This document shows, in pieces, positions 13,787-62,053 of a stretch of DNA of 64,000 nucleotides. Position numbers and translations under genes: made by a program. Position 1 is the first letter of the stretch. The number at the start of each line of letters is the position of its first letter. This stretch comes from a virus. Taxonomy: Duplodnaviria; Caudoviricetes. The stretch lies in IMG/VR virus record IMGVR_UViG_3300014204_000122, positions 64,001-128,000 of that record. The stretch is one strand, 5' to 3'. The notes under the pieces were generated by a model. The model saw only the letters and a program-made list of their open reading frames with translations, searched no databases and was not told where the DNA came from.

Positions 13787-13882
13787 TCTAGTGTGAGGGA
13801 TTCGAACCCTCGGATAATACTACCTGTGTACCACCGCACGCTTCCAAGACGTGCATCTTAAACCTAACTCGACCAACACTAG
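13787..13882 (-). tRNA. tRNA-Pro(UGG) with long variable arm
   Basis: CTAGTGT/ACACTAG-A; CACGT-CTTGGAA-GCGTG; about 25-nt V region; TTCGAAT T loop. Confidence 0.8.
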
Positions 13883-13892
13883 TTATAATTAG

Positions 13893-13964
13893 TAGCCCTA
13901 GATTGATTCGAACAATCATCAAGTCATTCGTAGTGACCCATTCTATCCGTTGAACTATAGAGCC
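13893..13964 (-). tRNA. tRNA-Arg(ACG)
   Basis: Cloverleaf with GGTCA-CTACGAA-TGACT. Confidence 0.92.
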
Positions 13965-13973
13965 TCAAATTTG

Positions 13974-14058
13974 CTGATTAGGTACGACTCGAACGTACAA
14001 GCTCTTTACGAGCACTTGCTTCAAAGACAAGTGTGTTTACCAATTCCACCACTAATCA
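13974..14058 (-). tRNA. tRNA-Gln(UUG) with long variable arm
   Basis: TGATTAG/CTAATCA-G; CTTGT-CTTTGAA-GCAAG; V arm GCTC-GTAAA-GAGC. Confidence 0.8.
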
Positions 14059-14064
14059 ATATTG

Positions 14065-14137
14065 TATCCATAGATGGGTTTGAACCACCGACCGCCAAGG
14101 TATAAGCTTGGAACTCTGACCACTGAGTTATATGGAT
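14065..14137 (-). tRNA. tRNA-Ile(UAU)
   Basis: CCAAG-CTTATAC-CTTGG; acceptor ATCCATA/TATGGAT. Confidence 0.88.
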
Positions 14138-14160
14138 ATATTTCAATTAACTTAATCTAG

Positions 14161-14235
14161 TCGAGGTGGTGAGATTTGAACTCACGAACCGACGTTTCCA
14201 GGACGCCGTTGTATAACCATCTGCATAACACCTCG
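14161..14235 (-). tRNA. divergent tRNA-Pro(UGG)
   Basis: CGAGGTG/CACCTCG-A; GGCGT-CCTGGAA-ACGTC (C33, A37); weak D stem. Confidence 0.7.
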
Positions 14236-14248
14236 TTATATTTTTTTG

Positions 14249-14319
14249 TTGTCTTACAAGGATTCGAACCTTGAATACCTGGATCAAAACCAGATGTGTT
14301 ACCATTACACTATAAGACA
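14249..14319 (-). tRNA. tRNA-Gln(UUG)
   Basis: TCTGG-TTTTGAT-CCAGG; U1:A72. Confidence 0.92.
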
Positions 14320-14391
14320 ATATATTTTAAAATCTAATTCTATGTTTCTCTGTCTATCGATCCTTTAAATTAGTAACGGTCTCCTGTATCG

Positions 14392-14467
14392 TCTAGGTAG
14401 TGAAATTTGAATTCACGTGCTCTGCATCCCAAATGCAGCGAGATAAACCTGACTCCTCTATACCTAG
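14392..14467 (-). tRNA. tRNA-Pro(UGG)
   Basis: CTGCA-TTTGGGA-TGCAG; C1:G72, A73. Confidence 0.92.
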
Positions 14468-14490
14468 TTATATATTTTTAAATTTTAAGC

Positions 14491-14527
14491 AAAAAAAAAT
14501 CTCAATCAAATTACTGATTGAGATTTT
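14491..14527 (-). terminator. attenuator terminator of tRNA array 1
   Basis: AAAATCTCAATCAG-TAAT-TTGATTGAGATTTTTTTTT on the minus strand. Confidence 0.85.
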
Positions 14528-14559
14528 CTATTAAAATATGAAATATTAACGTAAAACTT

Positions 14560-14649
14560 TTAAATTTTAATATTCAATTTTAAACATGACTCAATCAGGC
14601 TGCTTCTGCGCGGCTGTTGAGGTATTTGTATGTTTAAAATTGCGTTCAT
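14560..14649 (-). CDS. leader peptide 1 (MNAILNIQIPQQPRRSSLIESCLKLNIKI)
   Basis: 29-codon ORF between promoter repeat and terminator; codons 7-14 ATA CAA ATA CCT CAA CAG CCG CGC match array 1 tRNAs. Confidence 0.8.
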   Translation of the reverse strand: MNAILNIQIPQQPRRSSLIESCLKLNIKI

Positions 14650-14664
14650 TTTGTTTATTTTATT

Positions 14665-14767
14665 TTTAAATATTACTTTTTTATTTATTTATTATTAATA
14701 TAAGAAATTATTTTTGTTTTATTTCTATTTTGATACCCTAAAGATATATTTTTTTATAATACAAACC
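14665..14767 (-). promoter_or_regulatory. composite promoter block of tRNA array 1 (repeat copy A)
   Basis: About 100 bp nearly identical to 18125-18227; carries TTTG..TATCTTTAG, TTCTTATATT and ATATTTAAA elements. Confidence 0.7.
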
Positions 14768-15180
14768 TAATATTTTGAATTATTTTTTAACACTATACCA
14801 TTTTTATAAACTTCATACTCATAAAAACGAGGTAATCCATATTTTAGAGCTTCTGCTAAATCTGTCCATTCTTCTTCAGAAACCATATCATCTGGATAAG
14901 AAAAATTACCTTTTAAATGAGCAGGTATAGGTCTTAAATTAACTAAAACTAATTCACCTTCACCACCTTTAACATCTATTGCTAATTCTTCTGTGCTCCA
15001 ATCTGATTTAGTATCGATAATTTCTTCAACTCTATCACGAATTTCTTTTTGTGTATAAATTTTAGGTGTTGGAGGATCAGGAAACATATCTTCTTTCAAA
15101 ATTATTTTTTTTCCTGAAATTCTTTGTAATTTTTCAGTAAGCAATTGTATCTCTAATTGTTTTTCCTTTTCTGATTTCAT
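14767..15180 (-). CDS. tagged putative internal head protein
   Basis: MKSEKEKQLEIQLLTEKLQRISGKKIILKE tag. Confidence 0.75.
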   Translation of the reverse strand: MKSEKEKQLEIQLLTEKLQRISGKKIILKEDMFPDPPTPKIYTQKEIRDRVEEIIDTKSDWSTEELAIDVKGGEGELVLVNLRPIPAHLKGNFSYPDDMVSEEEWTDLAEALKYGLPRFYEYEVYKNGIVLKNNSKY

Positions 15181-15181
15181 T

Positions 15182-15568
15182 CTATTTTTCTTCTATATCT
15201 TCAATTTCTACATCACTATTTTCAAAATCTATAGGTTCTACACTTATTTGTGGTTGAGTTTCTTCTCCCTCTAATGCTTTATCAACACTGATAATTTCAC
15301 AAGAAACTATGTTAGTGAATACTTTTAATCTTTTATCAATTGCATTTTTAAGTTCTTCTTCTGAAGGTTCAAGATTATTTGTAATTATAATTTTACCTTC
15401 AATAAGAGTAGGTTCAAACCCTTCAAATAAAACAGATACTTTAAATAAATAAGTAATATTGTTCCAATAACTATTCATTTCTGTAAAAACTACTTTCTTG
15501 CCAGATATTCTTTGAATTTTTTCTGTAAGTAATTGTATCTCTAATTGTTTTTCTTTTTCTGTTTTCAT
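15182..15568 (-). CDS. tagged putative internal head protein
   Basis: N-terminal tag ending VVFTE. Confidence 0.75.
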   Translation of the reverse strand: MKTEKEKQLEIQLLTEKIQRISGKKVVFTEMNSYWNNITYLFKVSVLFEGFEPTLIEGKIIITNNLEPSEEELKNAIDKRLKVFTNIVSCEIISVDKALEGEETQPQISVEPIDFENSDVEIEDIEEK

Positions 15569-15580
15569 TATTGTTTATAG

Positions 15581-15838
15581 TTATACAGTTATTTTATTCC
15601 AAAAATCATTTAATTTTTTATCTGCACCCACTGCTAATTGAATTATGTCTTTAGATATAGGTCCTCCTATGATTTTAGCTGATTCTATAATGGCTTTTAA
15701 TTTTTCTGCTACTATTAAAATATCTTTTATATTATTAGTGGCTTCGTTTTCTTTTAAAACTACTTTCTTGCCAGATATTCTTTGGATCTTTTCAGTAAGT
15801 AATTGAATTTCTAATTGTTTTTCTTTTTCTGTTTTCAT
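15581..15838 (-). CDS. tagged putative internal head protein
   Basis: N-terminal tag ending VVLKE. Confidence 0.75.
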   Translation of the reverse strand: MKTEKEKQLEIQLLTEKIQRISGKKVVLKENEATNNIKDILIVAEKLKAIIESAKIIGGPISKDIIQLAVGADKKLNDFWNKITV

Positions 15839-15844
15839 TATTAA

Positions 15845-16261
15845 TTAAATACTGATTGTTTTTACTTCTTGAATATTTAGTTTTCCTGGAACTACTATAA
15901 AAGTAACATTTTCACAAGTCCATTTATCATAATCATCGAATGATTCATGTTTGCACTCTTCAATAAGCTCTAAAGCATCTTCTGATTCTTTTTTATCTAT
16001 AAGAGTTAAAAAATTAAGTAAGGCAATTTTTCTATTGATTCCTTTTACATAACTTATTTCTGAAACGTCTGCATTTCCTGAATTAGATTGTGAATAAACA
16101 GTAAATATTTTTTCTTCTTCTTGAGGTTCTCCTGGTTCCATAAGTTCTTCGATAATATCTTTGTCTTCACTTTCTGTAAAAACCACTTTCTTGCCAGATA
16201 TTCTTTGAATTTTTTCTGTAAGTAATTGTATCTCTAATTGTTTTTCTTTTTCTGATTTCAT
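15845..16261 (-). CDS. tagged putative internal head protein
   Basis: N-terminal tag ending VVFTE. Confidence 0.75.
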   Translation of the reverse strand: MKSEKEKQLEIQLLTEKIQRISGKKVVFTESEDKDIIEELMEPGEPQEEEKIFTVYSQSNSGNADVSEISYVKGINRKIALLNFLTLIDKKESEDALELIEECKHESFDDYDKWTCENVTFIVVPGKLNIQEVKTISI

Positions 16262-16296
16262 TTTATTTATATTTTAATTATTTACTTTAAATATAA

Positions 16297-16920
16297 TTAA
16301 TTTGGTTTTCCTACTAAAATTTTATAATGTTTTTCACCTGCAATGTCTCTTAAATACCAGCCTTCTTTTATATTAGATCCTTTAGGATTCTCTCCAACCC
16401 ATGTTACTTTCTTTCCTAATACTTGTTCTACTTCTTGTTGATTGTTTATAATAGGTACATTATATCTTTCTAGAACTTTCATTATTCTATTATCAACTTC
16501 ACAATAAAAACCTTGATTCTTTACTTTATTTGCAGCTCTTTCAAAATAAGATATAATAGAAGCTCTTGCTCCATCGTGTCCTACTCCTACTAATTTAATA
16601 CCGTGTTTAGTATTTTTTCCAAAATATAATACATCTATATCAGGATCTTGATCTATATCTACTACTTCTACATAAGAAAAATCATCATTTGATAAAATAT
16701 CATTTGTTGACTTTATATTACTATGACCTCCAATTTGAGAATATGCTATATTAATAAGTTCAAGAAATTCATCTACTAGTTCTGGGTGAGATTTTATATT
16801 GATTTTCTCCCACTCATGTTTTTTTAATCCTAATTTTGATGATTCTTTTTCTATAAGAATGACTTTGCTTTTAGAAATTTTTTCTAATTTTTCAATTAAT
16901 AATTGTAAAATAGGTTTCAT
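16297..16920 (-). CDS. protein with divergent N-terminal tag
   Basis: MKPILQLLIEKLEKISKSKVILIE. Confidence 0.7.
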   Translation of the reverse strand: MKPILQLLIEKLEKISKSKVILIEKESSKLGLKKHEWEKINIKSHPELVDEFLELINIAYSQIGGHSNIKSTNDILSNDDFSYVEVVDIDQDPDIDVLYFGKNTKHGIKLVGVGHDGARASIISYFERAANKVKNQGFYCEVDNRIMKVLERYNVPIINNQQEVEQVLGKKVTWVGENPKGSNIKEGWYLRDIAGEKHYKILVGKPN

Positions 16921-16985
16921 TTATAGCATTTTATTATAAATATAGGAAAGTAAAATATAAAAATTAAATTTTATAATATTTTTTG

Positions 16986-17068
16986 TACTCTAGGTCAGAC
17001 TCGAACTGACACGCTTGAGGGCGACGACGCTTAAAATCGTTGTGTACTACCAATTTCACCACTAGAGC
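16986..17068 (-). tRNA. tRNA-Leu(UAA)
   Basis: ACGAT-TTTAAGC-GTCGT; long V arm. Confidence 0.9.
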
Positions 17069-17073
17069 ATTTG

Positions 17074-17155
17074 TGATCTAAGAGAGATTTGAACTCTCAC
17101 TATTTACATAATTAGCTTCTTAAACTAACGTGTCTACCAATTCCACCATTAGACC
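17074..17155 (-). tRNA. tRNA-Leu(AAG)
   Basis: TTAGT-TTAAGAA-GCTAA; Leu-type D arm. Confidence 0.88.
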
Positions 17156-17163
17156 ATATTTTG

Positions 17164-17253
17164 CGGAAGATGAGGGGGTCGAACCCTCGTAACGGTTTTT
17201 AAGCGTCCTAATTGTTTAGCAAACAATCCTCTTTACCATTTGAGTAACCTTCC
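17164..17253 (-). tRNA. tRNA-Ser(GCU)
   Basis: ATTGT-TTGCTAA-ACAAT; long V arm; G73. Confidence 0.92.
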
Positions 17254-17265
17254 ATTTTATTTTTG

Positions 17266-17340
17266 TAGATTAGAAGGGAGTCGAACCCTCACTGAATAGT
17301 TTCTAAAACTATTGCCTCTTAACCATTGGGCTACTAATCC
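17266..17340 (-). tRNA. tRNA-Leu(UAG) with short variable loop
   Basis: ATAGT-TTTAGAA-ACTAT followed by a 5-nt V loop. Confidence 0.82.
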
Positions 17341-17354
17341 ATTTATATTTTTTG

Positions 17355-17445
17355 TACTCCAGGTCGGACTCGAACCGACAGTGTTTTCTCAATGAGTGTC
17401 ACCGTTTAAAAGTGATGCGTTTCAACCAAGTTTCGCCACTGGAGC
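17355..17445 (-). tRNA. tRNA-Leu(UAA)
   Basis: TCACT-TTTAAAC-GGTGA; long V arm. Confidence 0.9.
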
Positions 17446-17464
17446 ATATTTATTTTTTTATTTG

Positions 17465-17537
17465 GGTGAAAACGGGGCTCGAACCCTGTCCTAGATATTC
17501 ACAGTATCTCATGCTAACCAATAACACTATTTTCACC
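17465..17537 (-). tRNA. tRNA-His(GUG)
   Basis: G-1:C73; AGATA-CTGTGAA-TATCT. Confidence 0.9.
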
Positions 17538-17546
17538 ATATATTTG

Positions 17547-17639
17547 CGGAAGAAGTAGGATTCGAACCCACACACCCCTAAAGGCCCTCGGTTTTCAAGA
17601 CCGCCGCCGCTACCCTGCAAGCTTTCGGCTTATTCTTCC
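17547..17639 (-). tRNA. tRNA-Ser(UGA) with expanded D arm
   Basis: GCGGT-CTTGAAA-ACCGA; D arm GCCG-16nt-CGGC; G73. Confidence 0.82.
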
Positions 17640-17653
17640 ATTTTTTTATTTAG

Positions 17654-17743
17654 GGTGAAAGACGAGTCACGATCTCGCATTAAGTTGTTACACTATTCCA
17701 GAACCACAATCTGGTCGGCATCCAATTACCGGCTACTAACACC
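17654..17743 (-). tRNA. divergent tRNA-His(GUG) with long variable region
   Basis: G-1:C73; CCAGA-TTGTGGT-TCTGG; 19-nt V region; atypical D and T loops; two U.U acceptor mismatches. Confidence 0.65.
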
Positions 17744-17831
17744 ATATATTTTTAAAATAATATTATAAGCCGTACACTTTTCACAGTCGCTATGGGTTTC
17801 AACCATTTAGTACTTATAATATTATTTAAAG

Positions 17832-17915
17832 CGGAAGAAGAGAGATTCGAACTCTCGAAGCTTTTACACCCAGTTGTTTTCAAAACAATGTCCTCATGCC
17901 TACCGGATTTCTTCC
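17832..17915 (-). tRNA. tRNA-Ser(UGA), atypical D arm
   Basis: GGAAGAA/TTCTTCC-G; TTGT-TTTGAAA-ACAA; long V arm. Confidence 0.8.
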
Positions 17916-17936
17916 AAATTTATTTTTTTTACAATT

Positions 17937-17948
17937 ATTTCAATGAAC
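17937..17948 (-). promoter_or_regulatory. boxA-like antitermination element
   Basis: GTTCATTGAAAT between the terminator and the first tRNA. Confidence 0.55.
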
Positions 17949-17959
17949 TATATACAAAC

Positions 17960-18000
17960 AAAAAAAACCCTTGATCAATTTATTTAGATCAAGGGTTTTT
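17960..18000 (-). terminator. attenuator terminator of tRNA array 2
   Basis: AAAAACCCTTGATC-10nt-GATCAAGGGTTTTTTTT. Confidence 0.88.
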
Positions 18001-18026
18001 AATATTAACTTTTAAAATTATAGAAA

Positions 18027-18119
18027 TTATCTTTTCGTTAAATCATACCTTGATCCACATCTGCTACTTGATAACAGGTGTAAATGCGATAACAACGATA
18101 TGATAACTATTTTTTTCAT
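18027..18119 (-). CDS. leader peptide 2 (MKKIVIISLLSHLHLLSSSRCGSRYDLTKR)
   Basis: 30-codon ORF; codons 8-19 are exclusively Ser/Leu/His, matching array 2. Confidence 0.82.
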   Translation of the reverse strand: MKKIVIISLLSHLHLLSSSRCGSRYDLTKR

Positions 18120-18124
18120 TTTCT

Positions 18125-18227
18125 TTTAAATATTACTTTTTTATTTATTTATTATTAATATAAGAAATTATTTTTGTTTTATTTCTATTTTAATGCTCTA
18201 AAGATATATTTTTTTATAATACTAACC
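18125..18227 (-). promoter_or_regulatory. composite promoter block of tRNA array 2 (repeat copy B)
   Basis: Near-identical to 14665-14767. Confidence 0.7.
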
Positions 18228-18247
18228 AAATTATTTTAAATTATTTT

Positions 18248-18892
18248 TTATTTCATTACATATAGTTGGTATTTTCCTTTAGGAAATTCTTTAATTTCTT
18301 CAGGTGTATTAGCTGTTGCTAAAACCTTAGTTAATGTTCCAACATAGTAAGGATTATAAATTTTTGCTTTTCTATTATAAAGAGATGGAAGTTTAGTTGT
18401 ACCATTTCCATCATCAAATAAATATAAATCTCTATTATCTTTTAAATATTCTTCTGTTTTTCCTGAACCTGATAAAATAATTGTTTTATCATTTCCCACA
18501 AGTTTAAGTAAAAAATATGCTGTCTTATTTTGCACAAACTCATTATTTAATGGATTTTGCGTATCAATTTTACTATCTGAATTTAAACAAGCTATTTTTA
18601 TTCCTTTCTTTTCTTCTTCTAATATAATACTTTTATTAGATAATGTTGAAAATGCACTTTCATTTAGCACTTCAAAAACCAATATACCGTTACCACCAAA
18701 TTTTGAATTATTTCCTACTAATTGTCCCTCTTCATCAAATCCTAAATGAGACCAACCATCTTCTTCTAATTCTTTTTTAAATTCAGGATCTAATTCAACC
18801 TCTTCTTTTAAAACTACCTTCTTACCAGATATTCTTTGAATTTTTTCAGTAAGCAATTGTATTTCTAGTTGTTTTTCTTTTTCTGATTTCAT
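18248..18892 (-). CDS. tagged putative internal head protein
   Basis: N-terminal tag ending VVLKE. Confidence 0.75.
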   Translation of the reverse strand: MKSEKEKQLEIQLLTEKIQRISGKKVVLKEEVELDPEFKKELEEDGWSHLGFDEEGQLVGNNSKFGGNGILVFEVLNESAFSTLSNKSIILEEEKKGIKIACLNSDSKIDTQNPLNNEFVQNKTAYFLLKLVGNDKTIILSGSGKTEEYLKDNRDLYLFDDGNGTTKLPSLYNRKAKIYNPYYVGTLTKVLATANTPEEIKEFPKGKYQLYVMK

Positions 18893-18896
18893 TATT

Positions 18897-19466: not shown

Positions 19467-19468
19467 TA

Positions 19469-54051: not shown

Positions 54052-54073
54052 TAATCAAATAATTATATAAAAT

Positions 54074-54100: not shown

Positions 54101-54169
54101 ATTTTGTTTTAAAAATAATATCGAAGAATAAAGTATATTAAAAAATAATTCTTATTTTAAAAAATAAAA

Positions 54170-55513: not shown

Positions 55514-55517
55514 TAAA

Positions 55518-55946: not shown

Positions 55947-56042
55947 AAGTGTAGCAAATATGTTTTAAAGTGTTTTTAATCTTTAAAAAATAAAATATTT
56001 AGTAAAAAATTAATATTTATATAAAATGTTAATATAGACTAA

Positions 56043-56804: not shown

Positions 56805-56814
56805 TAATTAAAAA

Positions 56815-57084: not shown

Positions 57085-57096
57085 CAAATATAAAAA

Positions 57097-58563
57097 ATGA
57101 AATCAGAAAAAGAAAAACAATTGGAAATACAACTACTTACTGAAAAAATTCAAAATATATCTGGAAAAAAGGTTATTTTCAAAGAAGAGTTTAATATAGA
57201 AGAGGAAGACGATTATTATTTAATAACCTCTTTAGAAGATGAAATAGAAACTGAAGCTTTTATAGATAATTCAAAATATATTCAAAATAAATTTCCAAAT
57301 GAAAAAGTTTTAAAAATTGATTGTGTTTATAATAATGATTTTTTTAAAAAATTTATAGGGTTTTTAAAAAAGAATAATATTAAATATAATATTAGAAAGG
57401 CAAGATTAGATAATTTTTGTAGAATCAATATAAATGTAAAAGATTTAAAATCAACAAACATTTTAAAAGAAAACGAAGAGAAAACATATAAAATATCAAA
57501 AACATATAACGATAAAACTAAAGTTATTGAAGATACTTTAGAAGGATTAATCAAATATTTTAGTTATACTTTAGAATCAGGAAAAAGTCATAATAGTTCA
57601 ATAGATAAAAGACCTAAAACAATTAATAGTCTTATAAGTAATTTAAGAAAAGCTTTTGATGAATTAGAAGGAGGTTTTTCTAGAACAAGTATTAGGTTAA
57701 TTAAAGAAAATGTTGAAGTATTAAAAGAAACTATGTCTGCTATCCCTCCTGTTAAAAGTAAAACATCTGATTTAGAGAATTTAAGAGCTGCAATTATAGC
57801 AGAATATGATGCTATTAATTTATATGATCAAATGGCTAATAATACAAAAAATAGTAAAATTAAAGAAGTTTTGTTAGATATAGCTAAAGAAGAAAAAACT
57901 CATGTAGGTGAATTAGAAGCACTTTTAAAAGACTTTGACAAACAACATGCAGAAGAAGTCGTTTCAGGAGAAAAAGAGGTTAAAAAAGCTTTAAAAGAAG
58001 AAAAAACAACAGTTTTAAAAGAAGCTATTAATCCTAGCAGTTGGAATATGACTAATGTGGCAAATAAAGTAGAAAGTTATGCAAATGAAAAAAATATACC
58101 TTTTGCTAAATTTAAAATTGAAAGAAAACCTTATGGGTATGGAGCTACTAGAACTACAGCTAAATTAAAAATAGGTTCAAATATAATTCTTATGAAAGTA
58201 GATAAAGTACCTGGAATGGGCAATAACGCAAATGACCTTGAGGTATATATGATAGATCCACAAGATGAATCTAAAGGTATAAAAATCAGCAACTGGTGTT
58301 ATTTATCAGATATTCCAAAATTTTTAGATAAATGGTTTGAATCATCTCAAGTTAGTTCTGATATTAAAACAATGTCTAAAGAAGAGGTTGAAAAATTAAA
58401 ATCAGATTTAAAAAAGGCAAGAATTGAAAATAATGAAGAAATAAGTGATGATCAAGCTTTTGATATAGCAGAAAATATTATAAATGAAAATCCGGGTTTA
58501 AAGGAATATTTAACTAGTATAGGAATTAAAGATATACAAGGCTATATAGCTAATTGGATATAA
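57097..58563 (+). CDS. tagged multi-module protein with a ferritin-like domain
   Basis: N-terminal tag; LRAAIIAEYDAINLYDQMA..DIAKEEKTHVGEL; modules separated by LKE/IKE. Confidence 0.75.
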   Translation: MKSEKEKQLEIQLLTEKIQNISGKKVIFKEEFNIEEEDDYYLITSLEDEIETEAFIDNSKYIQNKFPNEKVLKIDCVYNNDFFKKFIGFLKKNNIKYNIRKARLDNFCRININVKDLKSTNILKENEEKTYKISKTYNDKTKVIEDTLEGLIKYFSYTLESGKSHNSSIDKRPKTINSLISNLRKAFDELEGGFSRTSIRLIKENVEVLKETMSAIPPVKSKTSDLENLRAAIIAEYDAINLYDQMANNTKNSKIKEVLLDIAKEEKTHVGELEALLKDFDKQHAEEVVSGEKEVKKALKEEKTTVLKEAINPSSWNMTNVANKVESYANEKNIPFAKFKIERKPYGYGATRTTAKLKIGSNIILMKVDKVPGMGNNANDLEVYMIDPQDESKGIKISNWCYLSDIPKFLDKWFESSQVSSDIKTMSKEEVEKLKSDLKKARIENNEEISDDQAFDIAENIINENPGLKEYLTSIGIKDIQGYIANWI

Positions 58564-58627
58564 AAAAATAAACATTGATAATCAATGAATTATAAATTAT
58601 TTTAAATTATTTTAAGAAAAAGGTTGT

Positions 58628-58741
58628 TTTGTATTAGAAAAAACCATTATCTTTAGCATAACAAATTAAGAGAAATAATACACTTTTGTAAAAATTTTTC
58701 TTATATTAATAATGAAAAATAAAAAATAGTTATATTTAAAA
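58628..58741 (+). promoter_or_regulatory. composite promoter block of tRNA array 3
   Basis: TTTGTATTA..TATCTTTAG, TTCTTATATTAATAAT and TATATTTAAA in the same order as for arrays 1 and 2. Confidence 0.65.
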
Positions 58742-58760
58742 GAAACAATAAATAAAAAAA

Positions 58761-58847
58761 ATGAAAAAGTGGTATACATATAGAACAATTATGACAGCCT
58801 TTAATAAAGGGGTAGAGGATTGTGGTGTACTCGATATTCGGATTTAA
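58761..58847 (+). CDS. leader peptide 3 (MKKWYTYRTIMTAFNKGVEDCGVLDIRI)
   Basis: 28-codon ORF; the first 21 codons contain exactly the 15 amino acids served by array 3. Confidence 0.85.
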   Translation: MKKWYTYRTIMTAFNKGVEDCGVLDIRI

Positions 58848-58872
58848 ACATTAATAAAGTAATTAAATATTT

Positions 58873-58906
58873 AAACCCGAATCAGTAAAAAGTTTCGGGT
58901 TTTTTT
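58873..58906 (+). terminator. attenuator terminator of tRNA array 3
   Basis: AAACCCGAA-12nt-TTCGGGTTTTTTT. Confidence 0.85.
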
Positions 58907-58929
58907 ATCCGGAAAAAAAAATAAAAAAA

Positions 58930-58941
58930 GTTCTTTGACAT
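58930..58941 (+). promoter_or_regulatory. boxA-like antitermination element
   Basis: GTTCTTTGACAT between the terminator and the first tRNA-like RNA. Confidence 0.6.
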
Positions 58942-58957
58942 ATTGGTATAAAAAAAT

Positions 58958-59046
58958 GGTTCTGTGGTGAAAGTATCACAAGGCAGTCGATTCACAACAG
59001 TGAGGTATCTTCAGTCGTGTTACAGGTTCATATCCTGTCAGAACCA
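58958..59046 (+). ncRNA. tRNA-like RNA without a canonical anticodon arm
   Basis: Acceptor GGTTCTG/CAGAACC-A, D arm GTGA-AAGTA-TCAC, T arm ACAGG-TTCATAT-CCTGT; about 40-nt irregular middle. Confidence 0.6.
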
Positions 59047-59055
59047 CATAATATT

Positions 59056-59136
59056 GGATCAGTTGAGCAATTGGTTGGCTCGCCTGACTGTAGATCAGGT
59101 CTGAAAGGCGTGGGGGTTCGAATCCCTCCTGATCCA
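59056..59136 (+). tRNA. tRNA-Tyr(GUA)
   Basis: CCTGA-CTGTAGA-TCAGG. Confidence 0.92.
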
Positions 59137-59152
59137 CATGATATTTTTCACT

Positions 59153-59390
59153 AGGTTTTGTTAATCTGACAAAATAATAAACCTTTAAACATATTAAATA
59201 AAAAGTCAGAATAGTTTAATATGGGTTTTAAGACGGTTTAAGCGCCGATAAATTATTCATTCAGTGGAAAGTAAAGTTTAGTTGTGTAGCATTGTAATTA
59301 TTTATAATGAATTAAATTTTATGGACTCCGAGATGATCATATATATAGAAAGGTATATAATTTTACAAGTAGAAGGCTTGTTATTAAAAC
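59153..59390 (+). ncRNA. candidate structured RNA within the tRNA array
   Basis: Several hairpins; complementary loops TCTGAC/GTCAGA. Confidence 0.4.
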
Positions 59391-59410
59391 TTATTTTTTT
59401 TAAGAAATAT

Positions 59411-59486
59411 TCCTCTGTAGCTATTAATTGGTTAGAGCGATAAATTGTTAATTTGGGGGTTGTTGGTTCGAGTCCAACTGGAGGAG
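59411..59486 (+). tRNA. tRNA-Asn(GUU)
   Basis: TCCTCTG/TGGAGGA-G; loop TTGTTAA; weak anticodon stem. Confidence 0.85.
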
Positions 59487-59497
59487 CAAAATAAAAT

Positions 59498-59570
59498 GGA
59501 TGAGTGGCGTAATTGGTAGCGCAATTGACTGTTAATCAATAGGTTATGGGATCGTACCCCATCTCATCCG
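59498..59570 (+). tRNA. tRNA-Asn(GUU)
   Basis: ATTGA-CTGTTAA-TCAAT; T loop ATCGTAC. Confidence 0.88.
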
Positions 59571-59582
59571 CAAACAAAAAAT

Positions 59583-59657
59583 GCCTTGATAGCGCAGGTG
59601 GTCAGTTCGCGCTGGACTGAAAATCCAGAGATAGTGGTTCAACTCCACTTCAGGGCA
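59583..59657 (+). tRNA. tRNA-Phe(GAA)
   Basis: CTGGA-CTGAAAA-TCCAG. Confidence 0.92.
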
Positions 59658-59670
59658 CATAAAATAAAAC

Positions 59671-59755
59671 GCACGAATAGCACGTAACTGGAAGCGTCCT
59701 TCTCTTCTAAAGAAGTGACTTTATGTTCTTGAAGGTTCGAATCCTTCTTCGTGTA
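59671..59755 (+). tRNA. tRNA-Arg(UCU) with long variable region
   Basis: CTTCT-CTTCTAA-AGAAG; 15-nt V region. Confidence 0.85.
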
Positions 59756-59782
59756 CAATTAAAATAATAGTTATTATAAAAT

Positions 59783-59853
59783 AGATCTATGGTGTAGTGG
59801 TAACATTTTGAGCTCCAACCTCAACGTCCTGCGTTCGAATCGTAGTGGGTCTG
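59783..59853 (+). tRNA. tRNA-Trp(CCA)
   Basis: TTGAG-CTCCAAC-CTCAA; G73. Confidence 0.9.
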
Positions 59854-59871
59854 CAAAAAAATAAAACATAT

Positions 59872-59956
59872 GTCACGTTCGACTAGCGGTCCAGGTCGCC
59901 AGGTTTTCATCCTGGTTAGAGAAATCTTAACATCGGTTCAAATCCGATACGTGATA
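59872..59956 (+). tRNA. tRNA-Glu(UUC) with long variable arm
   Basis: CCAGG-TTTTCAT-CCTGG; V arm containing AGA-GAAA-TCT. Confidence 0.85.
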
Positions 59957-59980
59957 CTGTAGATAAAATAAATAAAATAA

Positions 59981-60052
59981 CACCCGTTCGACAAGTGGTT
60001 AAGTCGTCAGGTTTTCAACCTGGAGTCACGAGTTCAAATCTCGTACGGGTGA
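59981..60052 (+). tRNA. tRNA-Glu(UUC)
   Basis: TCAGG-TTTTCAA-CCTGG. Confidence 0.9.
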
Positions 60053-60058
60053 CTAAAT

Positions 60059-60130
60059 AGTTCGGTGGTACAATGGTGGTATAACTCGTTGTCTGCGAGA
60101 TGGTTAGGGGTTCAAGTCCCCTCCGAACTG
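60059..60130 (+). tRNA. tRNA-Asp(GUC)
   Basis: CTCG-TTGTCTG-CGAG; G73. Confidence 0.85.
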
Positions 60131-60255
60131 CAATAAATTAAATAAATAAATAAAAATTAAATTATAAGTAAAATGAAAAAACAAATTAAGCAAGTCAAAC
60201 TTTAGAACAACACCTCTATCAAGGATACGTGTTGTAAAAATTAAAAAATTACAAT

Positions 60256-60328
60256 GCGTTCGTAGCTCAATTGGTGGAGCACTCGACTTTTGATCGAGGG
60301 GCTGTGAGTTCAATTCTCACCGGACGTA
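60256..60328 (+). tRNA. tRNA-Lys(UUU), G37
   Basis: CTCGA-CTTTTGA-TCGAG. Confidence 0.88.
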
Positions 60329-60335
60329 CAAGTAT

Positions 60336-60427
60336 GCGTTTGTTCGCTTAGCCCGGTCGAAAGCACCACTCTTTTAAAGTGGATAGTTATTATAACTACA
60401 TCGTAGGTTCAAATCCTACCAGACGTA
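60336..60427 (+). tRNA. tRNA-Lys(UUU) with long variable arm
   Basis: CCACT-CTTTTAA-AGTGG; V arm TAGTTA-TTA-TAACTA. Confidence 0.85.
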
Positions 60428-60438
60428 CTTAATTATAT

Positions 60439-60514
60439 AGAGGTATAGCTCAGCCCGGTTTAGAGCAACTCTTTTACACAGAGAAGGTCGTTGGTTCGAA
60501 TCCAGCTATCTCTA
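60439..60514 (+). tRNA. tRNA-Val(UAC)
   Basis: CTCT-TTTACAC-AGAG. Confidence 0.9.
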
Positions 60515-60527
60515 CAAAAAAATAAAT

Positions 60528-60599
60528 GGTCTATTGGTGTTAATGGTAACATGCTACACTGTCTATGTAGTGCTTTCGGTTCGAATCCGTGATAGACCG
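60528..60599 (+). tRNA. tRNA-Asp(GUC)
   Basis: CTACA-CTGTCTA-TGTAG; G73. Confidence 0.88.
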
Positions 60600-60609
60600 C
60601 ACAATATAT

Positions 60610-60684
60610 TGGAATATAGCTCAGCCCGGTCAGAGCGCGAAACTGATACTTTCGATGTCGGGGGTTCAAATCCCTCTATTCCAA
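60610..60684 (+). tRNA. tRNA-Ile(GAU)
   Basis: CGAAA-CTGATAC-TTTCG. Confidence 0.9.
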
Positions 60685-60762
60685 CATTTTAAAGTAATAA
60701 TTAATTAAAAAAAATAAAAAAATGAAAACAATAATTGGAGGTGACAGCTTGGTCGCGATTTA

Positions 60763-61239
60763 ATGAAAGAACAAAGAATTCAACTTAAAAAGAAACAAAT
60801 TGATAGTAAAAATCATAGAAAGTTACAAAAATATTCTACTAATTTTAATGAAATATTTTCTTTTTTTTTAAAAAGCTATAGAAAAGGAATTTTAACCTTT
60901 TGTGGATCAAACGTTGAAGTAGATTTTGATTATAATGAAGGAAACAGTAAGTTTTGTTTTAGAAAGTATGATAATGGTGAATATAAGTTCCAATCTATTA
61001 AATCTAAACATCCAAATATTTTAAAATCAGTAATTATAGGAAAGAAAAGTTGGGGATTATTTTTACAACAATGGTCAGATGGTATAGTTGATTGGAGTTT
61101 TACAGAAGAAGAAATTTTACAAGAGTTTAAAGATAATAATATAACAATTCCTGAACCTTTGTTAAAAGATTTTCGTAATGTTATTTTAAAAAAGAAAATT
61201 AAAAGAAATGATGAATATTTAAAAAACTGGAGGTTATAA
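60763..61239 (+). CDS. hypothetical protein inside tRNA array 3
   Basis: 158-aa ORF co-oriented with the tRNAs. Confidence 0.65.
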   Translation: MKEQRIQLKKKQIDSKNHRKLQKYSTNFNEIFSFFLKSYRKGILTFCGSNVEVDFDYNEGNSKFCFRKYDNGEYKFQSIKSKHPNILKSVIIGKKSWGLFLQQWSDGIVDWSFTEEEILQEFKDNNITIPEPLLKDFRNVILKKKIKRNDEYLKNWRL

Positions 61240-61437
61240 ATGAAATTAAAAACATTAGAAGAAAAGGAAGATTATTTAAAACAATTAGCAAAAGAAAGAA
61301 ATTATAAAAATCTTAATTTAACATTAAATCCAAATAAAAATATTACAAAAGAAATGATCATAGATGATTTAATATTTTTATTTGAATTAAAAAGAGATAA
61401 GAAAATGAAATTAATTTTTACAACTAAAGGTAAATAA
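61240..61437 (+). CDS. hypothetical protein inside tRNA array 3
   Basis: 65-aa ORF abutting the previous ORF. Confidence 0.55.
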   Translation: MKLKTLEEKEDYLKQLAKERNYKNLNLTLNPNKNITKEMIIDDLIFLFELKRDKKMKLIFTTKGK

Positions 61438-61514
61438 TTTTTAAAGAAGTATTTGTGAACATTAACACAATGGTAGTAAAAATGTTGATTTTCGGTAATA
61501 AGAACCGTTTTTTA

Positions 61515-61588
61515 GGAGAATTAACTCAGCTGACTAGAGTACCTACCTTGCACGTAGGAGGTCATCGGTTTGAATCCGATATTCTCCA
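61515..61588 (+). tRNA. tRNA-Ala(UGC), A3:U70
   Basis: CCTAC-CTTGCAC-GTAGG; acceptor GGAGAAT/ATTCTCC. Confidence 0.85.
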
Positions 61589-61596
61589 CAAATAAT

Positions 61597-61668
61597 GCAA
61601 GAGTAGCTCAGGGATAGAGCGATTGATTACCAATCAATAGGTCGGGATTTTGAAACTCCTCTCTTGCT
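61597..61668 (+). tRNA. tRNA-Gly(ACC)
   Basis: ATTGA-TTACCAA-TCAAT; G1:C72, C2:G71, U73. Confidence 0.82.
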
Positions 61669-61778
61669 CAAATTTTCTCTCCCAAAACAAGATAAATAGG
61701 TAGGAGGTAGGTGTGTTAAATCTTTTAACATAAATTTTAAAGTTTTTCTTTTAATTTATCTTGTTTTTTATTATTTTT

Positions 61779-61851
61779 GCAAAATGTAGCTTAATTGGCT
61801 AAAGCACTTGTCTTCCAAACAGGGGATGCGGATCGTACCCGACATTTTGCT
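61779..61851 (+). tRNA. tRNA-Gly(UCC)
   Basis: CTTGT-CTTCCAA-ACAGG; acceptor GCAAAATG/CATTTTGC; U73. Confidence 0.82.
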
Positions 61852-61886
61852 CATTTAGTTGTAGGATCTATAAAACCTTCATATTT

Positions 61887-61959
61887 GCCGAAATAACACA
61901 ATTGGTAGTGTAGTTGATTTGTAATCAACAGGTTAGGAGTTCAAATCTCCTTTTCGGCT
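61887..61959 (+). tRNA. tRNA-Thr(UGU)
   Basis: GTTGA-TTTGTAA-TCAAC. Confidence 0.92.
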
Positions 61960-61970
61960 CAAAATTATAT

Positions 61971-62053
61971 TGCGGTGTGCCTGAAGTTGGTATCAGTGAG
62001 GTCTCATAAACCTCTGTCGTTTGACCTCGCGGGTTCGAGTCCCGCTGCCGCAA
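61971..62053 (+). tRNA. tRNA-Met(CAU) with long variable arm
   Basis: GAGGT-CTCATAA-ACCTC; V arm GTC-GTTT-GAC; fMet-like acceptor and T arm. Confidence 0.82.

What the first reader, a model, noticed from the sequence alone, without database searches (positions are those of the whole stretch)
13787..62053. Systematic class switching of tRNA bodies: long variable arms on Pro, Gln, His, Arg, Glu, Lys and Met, and a short-arm Leu
Established: bacterial long V arms are confined to Leu, Ser, Tyr and Sec. Seen: long V regions on Pro(UGG) 13787-13882 (Ser-like D arm, but C1:G72/A73), Gln(UUG) 13974-14058 (Leu-like D arm, U1:A72/G73), His 17654-17743, Arg(UCU) 59671-59755, Glu 59872-59956, Lys 60336-60427 and Met 61971-62053. 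Leu(UAG) 17266-17340 has only a 5-nt loop. Pro, Gln, His, Glu and Lys each also have a conventional copy with the same anticodon. Inference: a structurally diversified backup set that evades tRNA-recognising nucleases or toxins. Alternatively some (for example the G73 long-arm Gln) could be mischarged by SerRS.
Basis: partly seen in the sequence, partly recalled or inferred. Interest (0 to 1): 0.8.

Follow-up and report, generated by a model that had tools for sequence, protein, structure and literature searches.

The report
Phage tRNAs with swapped body plans
A landfill phage carries proline, glutamine, glutamate, lysine, arginine and methionine tRNAs with an extra arm and a leucine tRNA without one; the same odd designs recur in many phages and may shield their tRNAs from bacterial tRNA-cutting defences.

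Summary
The observation largely holds. ARAGORN and Rfam both-96-nt tRNAs with Pro, Gln, Arg, Glu, Lys and Met anticodons and 14-25-nt variable regions, and a 75-nt Leu(UAG) with a 5-nt loop. The long His is weak: ARAGORN finds it only at a lowered threshold, Rfam not at all. The long Arg has a long loop but no stable stem.

These are not decayed copies. The long Pro, Lys, Glu and Gln belong to families found in many phage contigs. Their extra-arm stems covary strongly: Pro, 24 sequences, 7 of 8 pairs changed on both sides; Lys, 19 sequences, 3 of 3. All 8 other-wise chosen phage genomes sampled hold at least one such tRNA, and 6 of 8 hold a short Leu. Two family patterns were nearly or wholly absent from bacterial genomes.

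Acceptor ends and discriminators fit the anticodons, so cognate charging is likely. Escape from host tRNA-cutting defences is plausible, with published precedent, but untested. This scan has noted long-armed phage tRNAs before on other DNA. I found no paper describing them. This window stands out for the number of isotypes affected.

The parts
13787..13882 (-). Long tRNA-Pro(UGG): 96 nt, 8-bp extra arm, C1:G72, A73
   Evidence: ARAGORN; Rfam 47.8 bits; member of a 24-sequence covarying family
13974..14058 (-). Long tRNA-Gln(UUG): 85 nt, 4-bp extra arm, U1:A72, G73, Leu-like D arm
   Evidence: ARAGORN; Rfam 54.9 bits; V hairpin -5.7 kcal/mol, 0.2% of shuffles as low; family members; 5' half closest to Leu(UAA)
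17266..17340 (-). Short-arm tRNA-Leu(UAG): 75 nt, 5-nt variable loop, A73
   Evidence: ARAGORN; Rfam 56.7 bits; short Leu found in 6 of 8 phage genomes sampled
17654..17743 (-). Candidate long tRNA-His(GUG) with encoded G-1 and C73; weak, possibly decaying
   Evidence: Only ARAGORN -ps90; two U.U acceptor mismatches; no Rfam match at E<=10; G-1 read
59671..59755 (+). Long tRNA-Arg(UCU): 85 nt, 15-nt variable region without a stable stem; only UCU copy
   Evidence: ARAGORN; Rfam 43.2 bits; V region folds to 0.0 kcal/mol; only one doubtful analogue elsewhere
59872..59956 (+). Long tRNA-Glu(UUC): 85 nt, 3-bp arm with GAAA loop
   Evidence: ARAGORN; Rfam 50.5 bits; family in 9 of 9 IMG/VR loci and in LR756502.1 and LR756500.1; body closest to the conventional Glu
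60336..60427 (+). Long tRNA-Lys(UUU): 92 nt, 5-bp arm followed by CAUC, A73
   Evidence: ARAGORN; Rfam 49.7 bits; 19-sequence family, extra-arm stem 100% paired with changes on both sides at all 3 pairs
61971..62053 (+). Long tRNA-Met(CAU): 83 nt, 3-bp arm, initiator-like acceptor, A73; only CAU copy
   Evidence: ARAGORN; Rfam 41.4 bits; four other long Met(CAU) in other phages
14161..14467 (-). Conventional partners in array 1: Pro(UGG) 14161-14235 and 14392-14467, Gln(UUG) 14249-14319
   Evidence: ARAGORN; Rfam 30.2 bits (Pro 14161) and 68.5 bits (Gln); no Rfam hit at gathering score for Pro 14392-14467
17465..17537 (-). Conventional tRNA-His(GUG) with G-1
   Evidence: ARAGORN; Rfam 45.6 bits
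59981..60328 (+). Conventional partners in array 3: Glu(UUC) 59981-60052 and Lys(UUU) 60256-60328 (an Asp tRNA lies between them)
   Evidence: ARAGORN; Rfam 61.5 and 67.4 bits

Best explanation
These are working phage tRNA genes of conserved, phage-specific 'class-switched' families. Each keeps the acceptor end, discriminator and anticodon that host synthetases use, so it is charged with the amino acid of its anticodon. It serves the phage's dominant A/T-rich codons. What has changed is the body: a hairpin arm is added in the variable region (Pro, Gln, Glu, Lys, Met; a long loop in Arg) or removed (Leu). The most likely benefit is that host tRNA-directed defence nucleases and toxins, which read body shape as well as the anticodon loop, no longer fit.

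Shown: the genes are real, conserved across phages, and have covarying extra arms. Inferred: cognate charging. More weakly inferred: escape from defence.
For: Real genes: two programs agree on 6 long tRNAs and the short Leu, and shuffles give none.

Conserved families:
- The Pro pattern hit 36 IMG/VR stretches. 34 of the 35 new loci carry a 93-98-nt tRNA-Pro(UGG).
- All 9 Glu loci carry the long form.
- 6 of 7 Gln loci do.
- All 10 new Lys loci in IMG/VR and 2 MAG contigs do.

Covariation:
- Pro arm: 8 pairs, 97.4% of cells paired, 7 pairs changed on both sides. Whole-structure score 0.902 against 0.232 in shuffles (0 of 500 as high) and at most 0.135 when slid.
- Lys arm: 3 of 3 pairs changed on both sides, 19 of 19 paired. 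Score 0.706 against 0.207.
- Glu: 8 distinct stems in 9 loci.

Identity marks are kept: C1:G72 in 23 of 24 and A73 in 24 of 24 long Pro. In the window: A73 for Lys and Met, U1:A72/G73 for Gln, G-1/C73 for His.

Use: the anticodons read AAA (91% of Lys codons), GAA (89%), CAA (94%) and AGA (79%). Met and Arg(UCU) exist only in the long form.

Phage-specific: the Lys pattern hit 2 contigs in 185,579 species genomes, both with phage-like tRNA arrays. The Pro pattern hit 0 of 802 bacterial genomes.

No synthetase of Pfam PF00152, PF00587 or PF00749 lies in the contig, so host enzymes must do the charging.

Defence link:
- Retron-Eco7 cuts tRNA-Tyr in the V loop, and the longer V loop of SP15 tRNA-Tyr is needed to neutralise it (PMC12673091).
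- AriB targets Lys(UUU), Thr(UGU) and Asn(GUU), and also reads the D loop (PMC12409363).
- Lys, Asn and Thr make up 13 of the 28 long tRNAs in the 8 genomes.
- A T5-like coliphage carries a long-armed tRNA-Thr(UGU) that keeps the AriB site, where T5 itself has a short one with that site mutated.
Against: There is no RNA, charging or cleavage data. No RNA sequencing run holds this DNA.

The host is unknown, so no particular defence system can be named.

GluRS and class II synthetases might clash with an extra arm (recalled structural knowledge, not tested).

The long Arg has no stable stem, and the Glu, His and Met stems are marginal on their own.

The long Pro and Lys bodies resemble Ser- and Tyr-type D arms, which leaves room for misrecognition by SerRS or TyrRS.

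17 of 28 long tRNAs sit beside a conventional copy, which also fits plain dosage.

The isotype match with known nuclease targets is post hoc.

The contig is about 63% complete by CheckV, so a phage synthetase or partner protein could lie in the missing part.
Confidence: 0.4

Rival explanations
1. Tolerated legacy. The odd bodies are historical accidents of tRNA gene duplication in phage arrays. Class II scaffolds (Ser-, Tyr- or Leu-type) were recruited by a one-base anticodon change plus new identity marks, or a variable loop grew in place. The tRNAs work normally, but the arm itself brings no advantage.
For: The best D-arm match of long Pro is Ser in 11, Tyr in 5 and Pro in 1 of 28. For long Lys it is Tyr in 11 and Lys in 0 of 21. 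For long Gln it is Leu in 4 of 8. Long Glu matches Glu in 9 of 12, which points to growth in place. In the window, the 5' half of the long Gln is closest to Leu(UAA), at 0.82. Single-base paths exist: Ser UGA to Pro UGG, Leu UAG to Gln UUG, and Tyr GUA to His GUG or Asn GUU (genetic code).
Against: The arm is kept by compensatory change over wide divergence, from 28 to 59% G+C. A neutral arm would be expected to erode. Parts of the arm region are conserved in sequence: CAUC-type tails after the Lys arm and a G.U pair in 20 of 24 Pro arms. Gain and loss of arms recur in many isotypes and many phages, but are near-absent from cells.
Confidence: 0.25
2. Private handle. The arm is a docking site for a phage-encoded partner, such as a dedicated synthetase, modification enzyme or protective protein. 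This would make a phage-only tRNA pool.
For: Sequence conservation next to and inside the arms.
Against: No match to PF00152, PF00587, PF00749, PF01743, PF09511 or PF05731 in the 136.6-kb contig. Ten ORFs flanking the arrays have no Pfam match. Eleven isotypes carry arms of different geometry, which one partner would not easily fit. The contig is about 63% complete, so this is not excluded.
Confidence: 0.1
3. Mischarging. The long arm draws SerRS, LeuRS or TyrRS, so these tRNAs insert Ser, Leu or Tyr at Pro, Gln or Lys codons. Nematode nev-tRNAs are charged with Leu in this way.
For: Ser-, Tyr- and Leu-like D arms. The long Pro arm is 8-9 bp with a single spacer base, like Ser (Ser geometry recalled). 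G73 on the long Gln. Precedents: nev-tRNAs (PMC3333845, abstract in listing) and allo-tRNAs (PMC5389517).
Against: The cognate marks are what selection has kept: C1:G72 in 23 of 24 and A73 in 24 of 24 long Pro, not the G73 of Ser. The Leu-like long Gln has lost A73, which LeuRS needs in E. coli (recalled). These tRNAs read the commonest codons of the phage, so wholesale miscoding would damage every phage protein.
Confidence: 0.07
4. Non-decoding decoys or sensors. The long forms are not used by ribosomes. They soak up or report on host nucleases that attack the matching host tRNA.
For: Conventional copies lie beside many of them (17 of 28). Phage tRNA arrays do hold tRNA-like RNAs that cannot decode. 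One here, at 58958-59046, lacks an anticodon arm. T5 has several annotated tRNA-like stable RNAs.
Against: Anticodon loops are canonical and invariant within families. Acceptor and T arms are standard 7/5. In 11 of 28 cases the long form is the only copy for its anticodon. Class II bodies are fully compatible with the ribosome (textbook).
Confidence: 0.08
5. Decaying pseudogenes, at least for the weakest members.
For: The long His has two acceptor mismatches and no Rfam match. The long Arg has no arm stem and only one doubtful analogue elsewhere.
Against: For Pro, Gln, Glu, Lys and Met this is contradicted by conservation and covariation in other phages. Long His tRNAs with sound stems exist in other phages.
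Confidence: 0.05

Closest known systems
Canonical class II (type II) tRNAs of bacteria and phages: tRNA-Leu, tRNA-Ser, tRNA-Tyr
   Same: A 7/5 cloverleaf with a base-paired arm in the variable region. The arm is often capped by a GNRA-type loop, as in this phage's own Leu and Ser. The D arms of the long Pro, Lys and Gln families resemble Ser-, Tyr- and Leu-type D arms.
   Different: The anticodons, discriminators and first base pairs are those of Pro, Gln, Glu, Lys, Arg and Met. Conversely, Leu(UAG) lacks the arm.
allo-tRNAs and selC* tRNA-Cys (Mukai et al., NAR 2017, PMC5389517; abstract and passages read)
   Same: Bacterial and phage-associated tRNAs with a long arm and non-Ser/Leu/Tyr anticodons. 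selC* shows that a long-armed body can keep Cys identity.
   Different: allo-tRNAs are defined by 8/4 or 9/3 acceptor/T-stem composition and mostly G73/U73 Ser-type identity. The tRNAs here are 7/5 with cognate marks. That paper names 8/4 Ser and His tRNAs in phages. In the passages I read it does not name long-armed Pro, Lys, Glu or Gln; its supplements were not seen.
Nematode nev-tRNAs (Hamashima et al., NAR 2012, PMC3333845; abstract seen in a search listing only)
   Same: Class II bodies carrying class I anticodons (Gly, Ile), conserved in a lineage.
   Different: They are eukaryotic and are charged with Leu in vitro, so identity follows the body. Here the identity marks follow the anticodon.
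Type I tRNA-Leu(CAA) of Streptomyces coelicolor (Fan et al., NAR 2019, PMC6614811; abstract read)
   Same: A leucine tRNA with a short variable loop that coexists with long-armed Leu tRNAs and is charged by the single LeuRS.
   Different: It is a cellular gene, and charging depends on a special LeuRS domain. Here the gene is a phage gene of a recurrent phage family, and the host LeuRS is unknown.
Phage tRNAs that neutralise tRNA-cutting defences: T5 tRNA-Lys, -Thr and -Asn against PARIS AriB (PMC12409363; PMC11464382, listing only), SP15/T5 tRNA-Tyr against Retron-Eco7 (PMC11555353, PMC12673091), and anticodon-loop variants (PMC10264068)
   Same: Phage copies of the very isoacceptors that defences destroy, altered so that the nuclease fails while translation goes on. 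For SP15 tRNA-Tyr the variable loop is the decisive part.
   Different: The published escapes rest on point changes in the anticodon stem-loop or D loop, or on a longer arm in a tRNA that already has one. Adding an arm to class I isotypes, or deleting it from Leu, is not described there: 'variable', 'V-loop' and 'class II' occur 0 times in PMC10264068, and 'variable', 'V-loop' and 'V-arm' 0 times in PMC12409363. No resistance has been measured for any tRNA here.

Membership tests
tRNA (Rfam RF00005) | Score at or above the family's gathering score (29 bits) with full-length model match | tested here: met
   Pro 47.8, Gln 54.9, Arg 43.2, Glu 50.5, Lys 49.7, Met 41.4, short Leu 56.7 bits, all matching model positions 1-71. 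Not met for the long His.
Class II (long-arm) tRNA architecture | Variable region over about 10 nt that forms a stem-loop | tested here: inconclusive
   All are 14-25 nt long. The stem is clear for Pro (8 bp), Gln (4 bp) and Lys (5 bp). It is 3 bp and marginal for Glu and Met. There is none for Arg. Family covariation supports the Pro, Lys and Glu arms.
Class II (long-arm) tRNA architecture | Isotype Leu, Ser, Tyr or Sec (bacterial rule) | tested here: not met
   Anticodons are UGG, UUG, UCU, UUC, UUU and CAU.
allo-tRNA (PMC5389517) | 12-bp acceptor branch split 8/4 or 9/3 | tested here: not met
   ARAGORN draws 7-bp acceptor and 5-bp T stems for all six.
allo-tRNA (PMC5389517) | Ser-type identity (G73 or U73 with a long arm) | tested here: not met
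   A73 in Pro, Arg, Glu, Lys and Met. Only Gln has G73, together with U1:A72.
Phage long-arm tRNA-Pro(UGG) family (defined here) | About 95 nt; C1:G72; A73; loop CUUGGAA; 8-9-bp arm; one spacer base before the T stem | tested here: met
   The window copy aligns over its full length with 23 others. The arm is paired and covaries.
Phage long-arm tRNA-Lys family (defined here) | D loop with GGUCGAA; one base, then a 3-5-bp arm, then a 4-nt CAUC-type tail before the T stem | tested here: met
   The window copy has all of these features. 19 sequences are aligned and the arm is 100% paired.
Type I tRNA-Leu (PMC6614811) | Leu anticodon with a 4-5-nt variable loop | tested here: met
   Leu(UAG) 17266-17340 has a 5-nt loop.
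Type I tRNA-Leu (PMC6614811) | Leucylation by the cell's LeuRS | not testable with these tools
Defence-neutralising phage tRNAs (PARIS and Retron-Eco7 literature) | Measured resistance to the nuclease, and rescue of infection | not testable with these tools
   Only sequence parallels are available.

The most novel reading that the evidence does not exclude
Switching tRNA class is a general phage counter-defence principle. By adding a hairpin arm to class I tRNAs or deleting it from tRNA-Leu, while keeping the few marks that synthetases read, phages build a translation-competent tRNA set. The altered body shape would make that set invisible to whole groups of host tRNA-directed nucleases and toxins (AriB-, PtuAB-, PrrC- and VapC-type).
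Probability: 0.3. Interest if true: 0.85.

Novelty: new variant of a known kind. Interest (0 to 1): 0.7.

Why it matters
Textbooks tie the long variable arm to Leu, Ser, Tyr and Sec in bacteria. Here one phage breaks that rule for six or seven other amino acids, and breaks it in reverse for Leu. The same designs are conserved, with compensatory change, in many unrelated phages. These include cultured ones where they are annotated simply as tRNA-Lys, tRNA-Asn or tRNA-Thr.

If they are charged correctly, they show how little of the tRNA body synthetases need. They would also be natural scaffolds for tRNA engineering.

If the arm blocks defence nucleases, it is a new and general move in the phage-bacterium contest over tRNAs. 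It would be directly testable in E. coli with T5-like phages and PARIS or Retron-Eco7.

Tried and rejected
Introns. ARAGORN with introns allowed gave the same calls for all the long tRNAs. It added only one implausible gene with a 1134-nt intron. I rejected the idea that the extra segments are introns.

Another genetic code. ORFs of at least 100 aa cover 0.93 of the contig under the standard code, and no suppressor tRNA was called. I did not pursue this.

Closer relatives.
- The ORF next to array 2 (16297-16920) found no relative in IMG/VR.
- blastn of a long Pro against the phage collection found nothing.
- The rubrerythrin-like ORF gave three loci, one of them useful.

Partner proteins. Pfam on 10 large ORFs showed only that this is a T4-like phage, through portal and gp23 matches. 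Ten ORFs flanking the arrays had no match. Six family searches of the contig found nothing. For PF09511 the control genomes did not ring either, so that blank says nothing.

Expression. No RNA holder was listed for this DNA; the best DNA holder is a landfill metagenome.

T5. I expected a long-armed Asn or Thr and found none. A T5-like relative does have a long Thr.

Covariation counts for Glu and Gln. MAFFT did not place their arm stems in register, so I did not run pair counts on them. I report only the list of distinct stems.

Parser errors. My first segment parser misplaced the T arm where CCA is encoded. The bracket parser flagged some 72-74-nt tRNAs as having V=10-11. therefore counts only tRNAs of at least 80 nt with V of at least 11, and drops those rows and the '?' and Stop calls.

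Rows left out of alignments:
- From A1: the 81-nt Lys(CUU) of LR756502.1.
- From A2: L114, whose ends were shifted, and duplicate sequences.
- From A3: L144 (a duplicate) and a second long Glu of L146.
- From A4: L155 (a duplicate) and L156.

Literature. Six searches found no paper on long-armed Pro, Lys, Glu, Gln, Asn or Thr tRNAs in phages. Subscription journals and all supplements were out of reach, among them the supplementary figures of PMC5389517, which may bear on this claim.

Full report
WHAT THE WINDOW IS. The window is bases 64001-128000 of a 136,569-bp viral contig with 26% G+C. CheckV rates the contig about 63% complete. A T4-type portal (Pfam PF07230, E 5e-58) and a gp23-type major capsid protein (PF07068, E 4e-57) mark it as a distant T4-like phage. 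The only strong DNA holder among public runs is a landfill metagenome. The standard genetic code fits.

THE OBSERVATION. ARAGORN at default settings finds 30 tRNA genes in three arrays. Rfam's tRNA model finds 33 matches above its gathering score.

| tRNA | Coordinates | Length (nt) | Variable region (nt) | Rfam bits |
|---|---|---|---|---|
| Pro(UGG) | 13787-13882 | 96 | 25 | 47.8 |
| Gln(UUG) | 13974-14058 | 85 | 16 | 54.9 |
| Arg(UCU) | 59671-59755 | 85 | 15 | 43.2 |
| Glu(UUC) | 59872-59956 | 85 | 16 | 50.5 |
| Lys(UUU) | 60336-60427 | 92 | 20 | 49.7 |
| Met(CAU) | 61971-62053 | 83 | 14 | 41.4 |
| Leu(UAG) | 17266-17340 | 75 | 5 | 56.7 |

Twenty dinucleotide shuffles of the window gave no ARAGORN call. 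One hundred shuffles of the array regions gave one.

The drawn structures have standard 7-bp acceptor and 5-bp T stems. Allowing introns changes nothing for these genes. Conventional copies with the same anticodon exist for Pro (two), Gln, His, Glu and Lys. Arg(UCU) and Met(CAU) exist only in the long form.

Two parts of the observation are weaker:
- The long His (17654-17743, with an encoded G-1 and C73) is called only at a lowered ARAGORN threshold. It has two U.U mismatches in its acceptor stem. It has no Rfam match even at E<=10.
- Folded on their own, the variable regions form convincing hairpins only for Gln (-5.7 kcal/mol; 0.2% of shuffles as low), Pro (-5.9; 7%), Lys (-2.0; 1.2%) and Met (-1.3; 4.8%). 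Glu (-0.1) and His (-0.4) are marginal. Arg (0.0) has no stem.

THESE ARE MEMBERS OF WIDESPREAD PHAGE FAMILIES. A related 135.6-kb IMG/VR contig, found through a neighbouring protein, has a long Pro(UGG) and a long Cys(GCA). An ORF inside array 3 led by blastn to the 642-kb phage LR756502.1. Its arrays hold three long Lys, one long Glu, one long Thr and one long Gln, plus two short Leu.

I then sampled tRNA-rich stretches of three more huge phages and two cultured phages, all taken from the same blastn list and not chosen for long arms. With strict criteria (at least 80 nt, variable region at least 11 nt), the eight genomes gave these counts:
- 28 long tRNAs of isotypes other than Leu, Ser or Tyr, among 299 tRNAs.
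- At least one in each of the 8 genomes.
- By isotype: Lys 8, Gln 3, Glu 3, Asn 3, Pro 2, Arg 2, Met 2, Thr 2, and Cys, Val and His 1 each.
- Short Leu: 11 of 31 Leu genes, in 6 of 8 genomes.

In GenBank, Xanthomonas phage X1 already lists an 83-nt tRNA-Asn beside a 73-nt one, an 82-nt tRNA-Lys beside a 73-nt one, and a 74-nt tRNA-Leu, all without comment.

Patterns built from conserved parts outside the arm stems were scanned over IMG/VR.
- The Lys patterns hit 4 and then 9 stretches, 10 distinct new loci in all. Each holds an 85-92-nt tRNA-Lys inside a tRNA array.
- The same Lys pattern hit only 2 contigs in one genome each of 185,579 prokaryote species. Both contigs carry phage-like tRNA arrays.
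- The Pro pattern hit 36 stretches. 34 of the 35 new loci hold a 93-98-nt tRNA-Pro(UGG), and one has no ARAGORN call.
- The Pro pattern was not found in 0 of 2, 0 of 401 and 0 of 401 bacterial genomes of two phyla.
- The Glu pattern hit 9 loci, all with an 84-89-nt tRNA-Glu(UUC).
- The Gln pattern hit 7 loci. 6 hold an 81-85-nt tRNA-Gln(UUG), and one has no call.
- Long Met(CAU) with initiator-like acceptor stems turned up in four other phages.
- For Arg(UCU) I found only one doubtful analogue.

THE ARMS COVARY. In an alignment of 19 long Lys tRNAs, the three core pairs of the arm are paired in 19 of 19. All three pairs show changes on both sides, in 5, 9 and 12 sequences. The covariation score of the tested helices is 0.706, against 0.207 in shuffles (0 of 500 as high) and at most 0.090 with the partners slid.

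In 24 distinct long Pro tRNAs, the 8-pair arm is paired in 97.4% of cells, and 7 pairs change on both sides. The whole cloverleaf is paired in 99.1% of cells. The score is 0.902, against 0.232 in shuffles (0 of 500) and at most 0.135 when slid. The search patterns fixed loops and spacing, not the stem letters, so they did not force this result. The sequences are related, so the shuffle control overstates significance; the slid control does not share that weakness. Nine Glu loci show eight different arm stems of 3-6 bp.

Some features next to the arms are conserved:
- A 4-nt CAUC-type tail follows the Lys arm.
- One spacer base follows the Pro arm, and one G.U pair is kept in 20 of 24 Pro arms.

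WHOSE IDENTITY? The marks that synthetases are known to read (rules recalled from E. coli work) follow the anticodon, not the body:
- Long Pro: C1:G72 in 23 of 24 and A73 in 24 of 24.
- Window Gln: U1:A72 and G73, which recur in its family.
- Lys and Met: A73.
- His: G-1 and C73.

The bodies tell a mixed story of origin (scores are low, so this is suggestive only):
- The D arm of long Pro most resembles Ser (11), Tyr (5) or Cys (4), and Pro in only 1 of 28.
- Long Lys resembles Tyr in 11 of 21 and never Lys.
- Long Gln resembles Leu in 4 of 8.
- Long Glu resembles Glu in 9 of 12.

In the window, the long Glu is closest to its conventional neighbour in all three parts compared (0.70, 0.88, 0.80). 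The long Gln is closest to Leu(UAA) in its 5' half (0.82). So some families look like class II scaffolds that changed anticodon and identity: one base separates Ser UGA from Pro UGG and Leu UAG from Gln UUG. Others look like class I tRNAs whose variable loop grew.

The Leu-like Gln has G73 in place of A73, which argues against leucylation (recalled rule).

The contig holds no synthetase of Pfam families PF00152, PF00587 or PF00749. The long tRNAs read the phage's dominant codons: AAA 91%, GAA 89%, CAA 94%, AGA 79%. Host synthetases charging them with the cognate amino acid is thus the simplest reading. It is an inference.

WHY CHANGE THE BODY? Nothing here measures function. The literature gives a direct precedent. 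Retron-Eco7 cuts E. coli tRNA-Tyr in its variable loop, and phage SP15's tRNA-Tyr needs its 5-nt-longer loop to neutralise the system (PMC12673091, passages). PARIS AriB cuts tRNA-Lys(UUU), Thr(UGU) and Asn(GUU) on the 3' side of the anticodon stem. It also depends on the D loop, and restoring the cut site in T5 tRNA-Lys did not restore cleavage (PMC12409363, abstract and two sections).

Lys, Asn and Thr are 13 of the 28 long tRNAs in my eight genomes. This match was noticed after the fact.

T5 itself has no long-armed class I isotype. At the place where T5 has its 75-nt tRNA-Thr, the T5-like coliphage Stokescottia has an 84-nt (plus CCA) tRNA-Thr(UGU). That tRNA has the same arm layout as the Lys family and an intact U36-A-A-U-C-A41 AriB site, while T5's copy has G39. 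This suggests that body remodelling and anticodon-stem mutation may be alternative routes to the same end. It also offers a clean test in E. coli.

Loss of the arm in Leu fits the same logic, and it is biochemically feasible: Streptomyces coelicolor LeuRS charges a short-loop tRNA-Leu (PMC6614811, abstract).

My estimates:
- The Pro, Gln, Glu and Lys genes are real and conserved: about 0.9.
- Charging is cognate: about 0.65.
- The body change is selected for escape from tRNA-directed defences: about 0.35.
- The full chain: 0.4 as stated, rounded up because the parts are correlated.

The rivals are a tolerated evolutionary legacy, a handle for a phage partner, mischarging, decoys and decay. They are set out above with the results that would refute each.

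WHAT IS KNOWN, AND NOVELTY. The closest published things are:
- allo-tRNAs and selC* tRNA-Cys (different stem composition and identity).
- Nematode nev-tRNAs (eukaryotic, charged according to the body).
- The Streptomyces type I tRNA-Leu.
- The nuclease-resistant phage tRNAs of T5 and SP15 (point changes, or a longer arm on a tRNA that already has one).

Six full-text searches found no description of long-armed Pro, Lys, Glu, Gln, Asn or Thr tRNAs in phages. Subscription journals and supplements were not visible.

This scan has recorded the phenomenon before on other DNA. A word search returned 225 notes in at least 206 genomes, mostly on Lys, Asn and Thr. It also returned notes on short Leu and on many-isotype arrays. 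My results agree with those notes and were obtained independently.

This window adds breadth in a single phage: six firm long isotypes plus a short Leu. It also adds family-level covariation for Pro, which is the most extreme case with an 8-9-bp arm, and recurrent long-armed families for Glu and Gln.

I class it as a new variant of a known kind, and I rate the interest at 0.7.

Noticed in passing
window 58958-59046 (+): A tRNA-like element at the head of array 3. It has acceptor, D and T arms (Rfam tRNA 34.6 bits), but 37 nt of other sequence stand where the 17-nt anticodon arm should be. ARAGORN does not call it. It recalls the tRNA-like stable RNAs annotated in T5.
   Followed up: partly
window 17548-17639 (-) and 17831-17915 (-): Two odd Ser(UGA) candidates. 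The first has a 16-nt D loop and matches only Rfam's tRNA-Sec model, below threshold (31.8 bits against 47). The second scores only 17.9 bits on the tRNA model. Both are called by ARAGORN only at -ps90.
   Followed up: partly
window 59498-59570, 61780-61850 (+) and many loci (e.g. L094, L071): T loops of the GAUCGUA type, with A where T54 should be and U where A58 should be, recur in Asn, Gly and other tRNAs of these phages. This would swap the usual T54:A58 pair.
   Followed up: no
all three arrays of the window: No tRNA encodes CCA. 29 of 30 are followed by C, and 22 of 30 by CA (17 by CAA), directly after the discriminator. This may be a processing signal.
   Followed up: no
window 61597-61668 (+), 59411-59486 (+), 17355-17445 (-): Three good Rfam tRNA matches (53.9, 42.3 and 47.9 bits) that ARAGORN misses at default settings. 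By my reading of the sequence, the first has an ACC (Gly) anticodon with A34. The related contig G001 also has a Gly(ACC).
   Followed up: partly
window 14392-14467 and 14161-14235 (-): The two 'conventional' Pro(UGG) genes score worse on Rfam's tRNA model than the long one does: no match at gathering score and 30.2 bits, against 47.8 bits for the long one.
   Followed up: no
window 60763-61239 (+): A 158-aa ORF inside array 3 has no Pfam match. It is similar at the DNA level (67% over 437 bases) to a stretch of the 642-kb phage LR756502.1 that also lies beside a tRNA array.
   Followed up: partly
L158 (Escherichia phage Stokescottia OR896820.1) 1486-1572: A T5-like coliphage has a long-armed tRNA-Thr(UGU) that keeps the AriB cleavage motif, where T5 has a short tRNA-Thr with that motif mutated. 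This is a ready-made experimental pair.
   Followed up: partly
L096 7664-7741; L070 (LR756502.1) about 390899-390971; L080 (LR756501.1) 204243-204333: Other phage arrays hold a UUA-anticodon (ochre suppressor) tRNA and tRNAs that ARAGORN reads with 2- or 4-base anticodons.
   Followed up: no
window 57097-58563 (+): A 488-aa ORF with a rubrerythrin/ferritin-like domain (Pfam PF02915, E 1.4e-10) lies between the capsid gene region and array 3. It is shared with three IMG/VR contigs.
   Followed up: no
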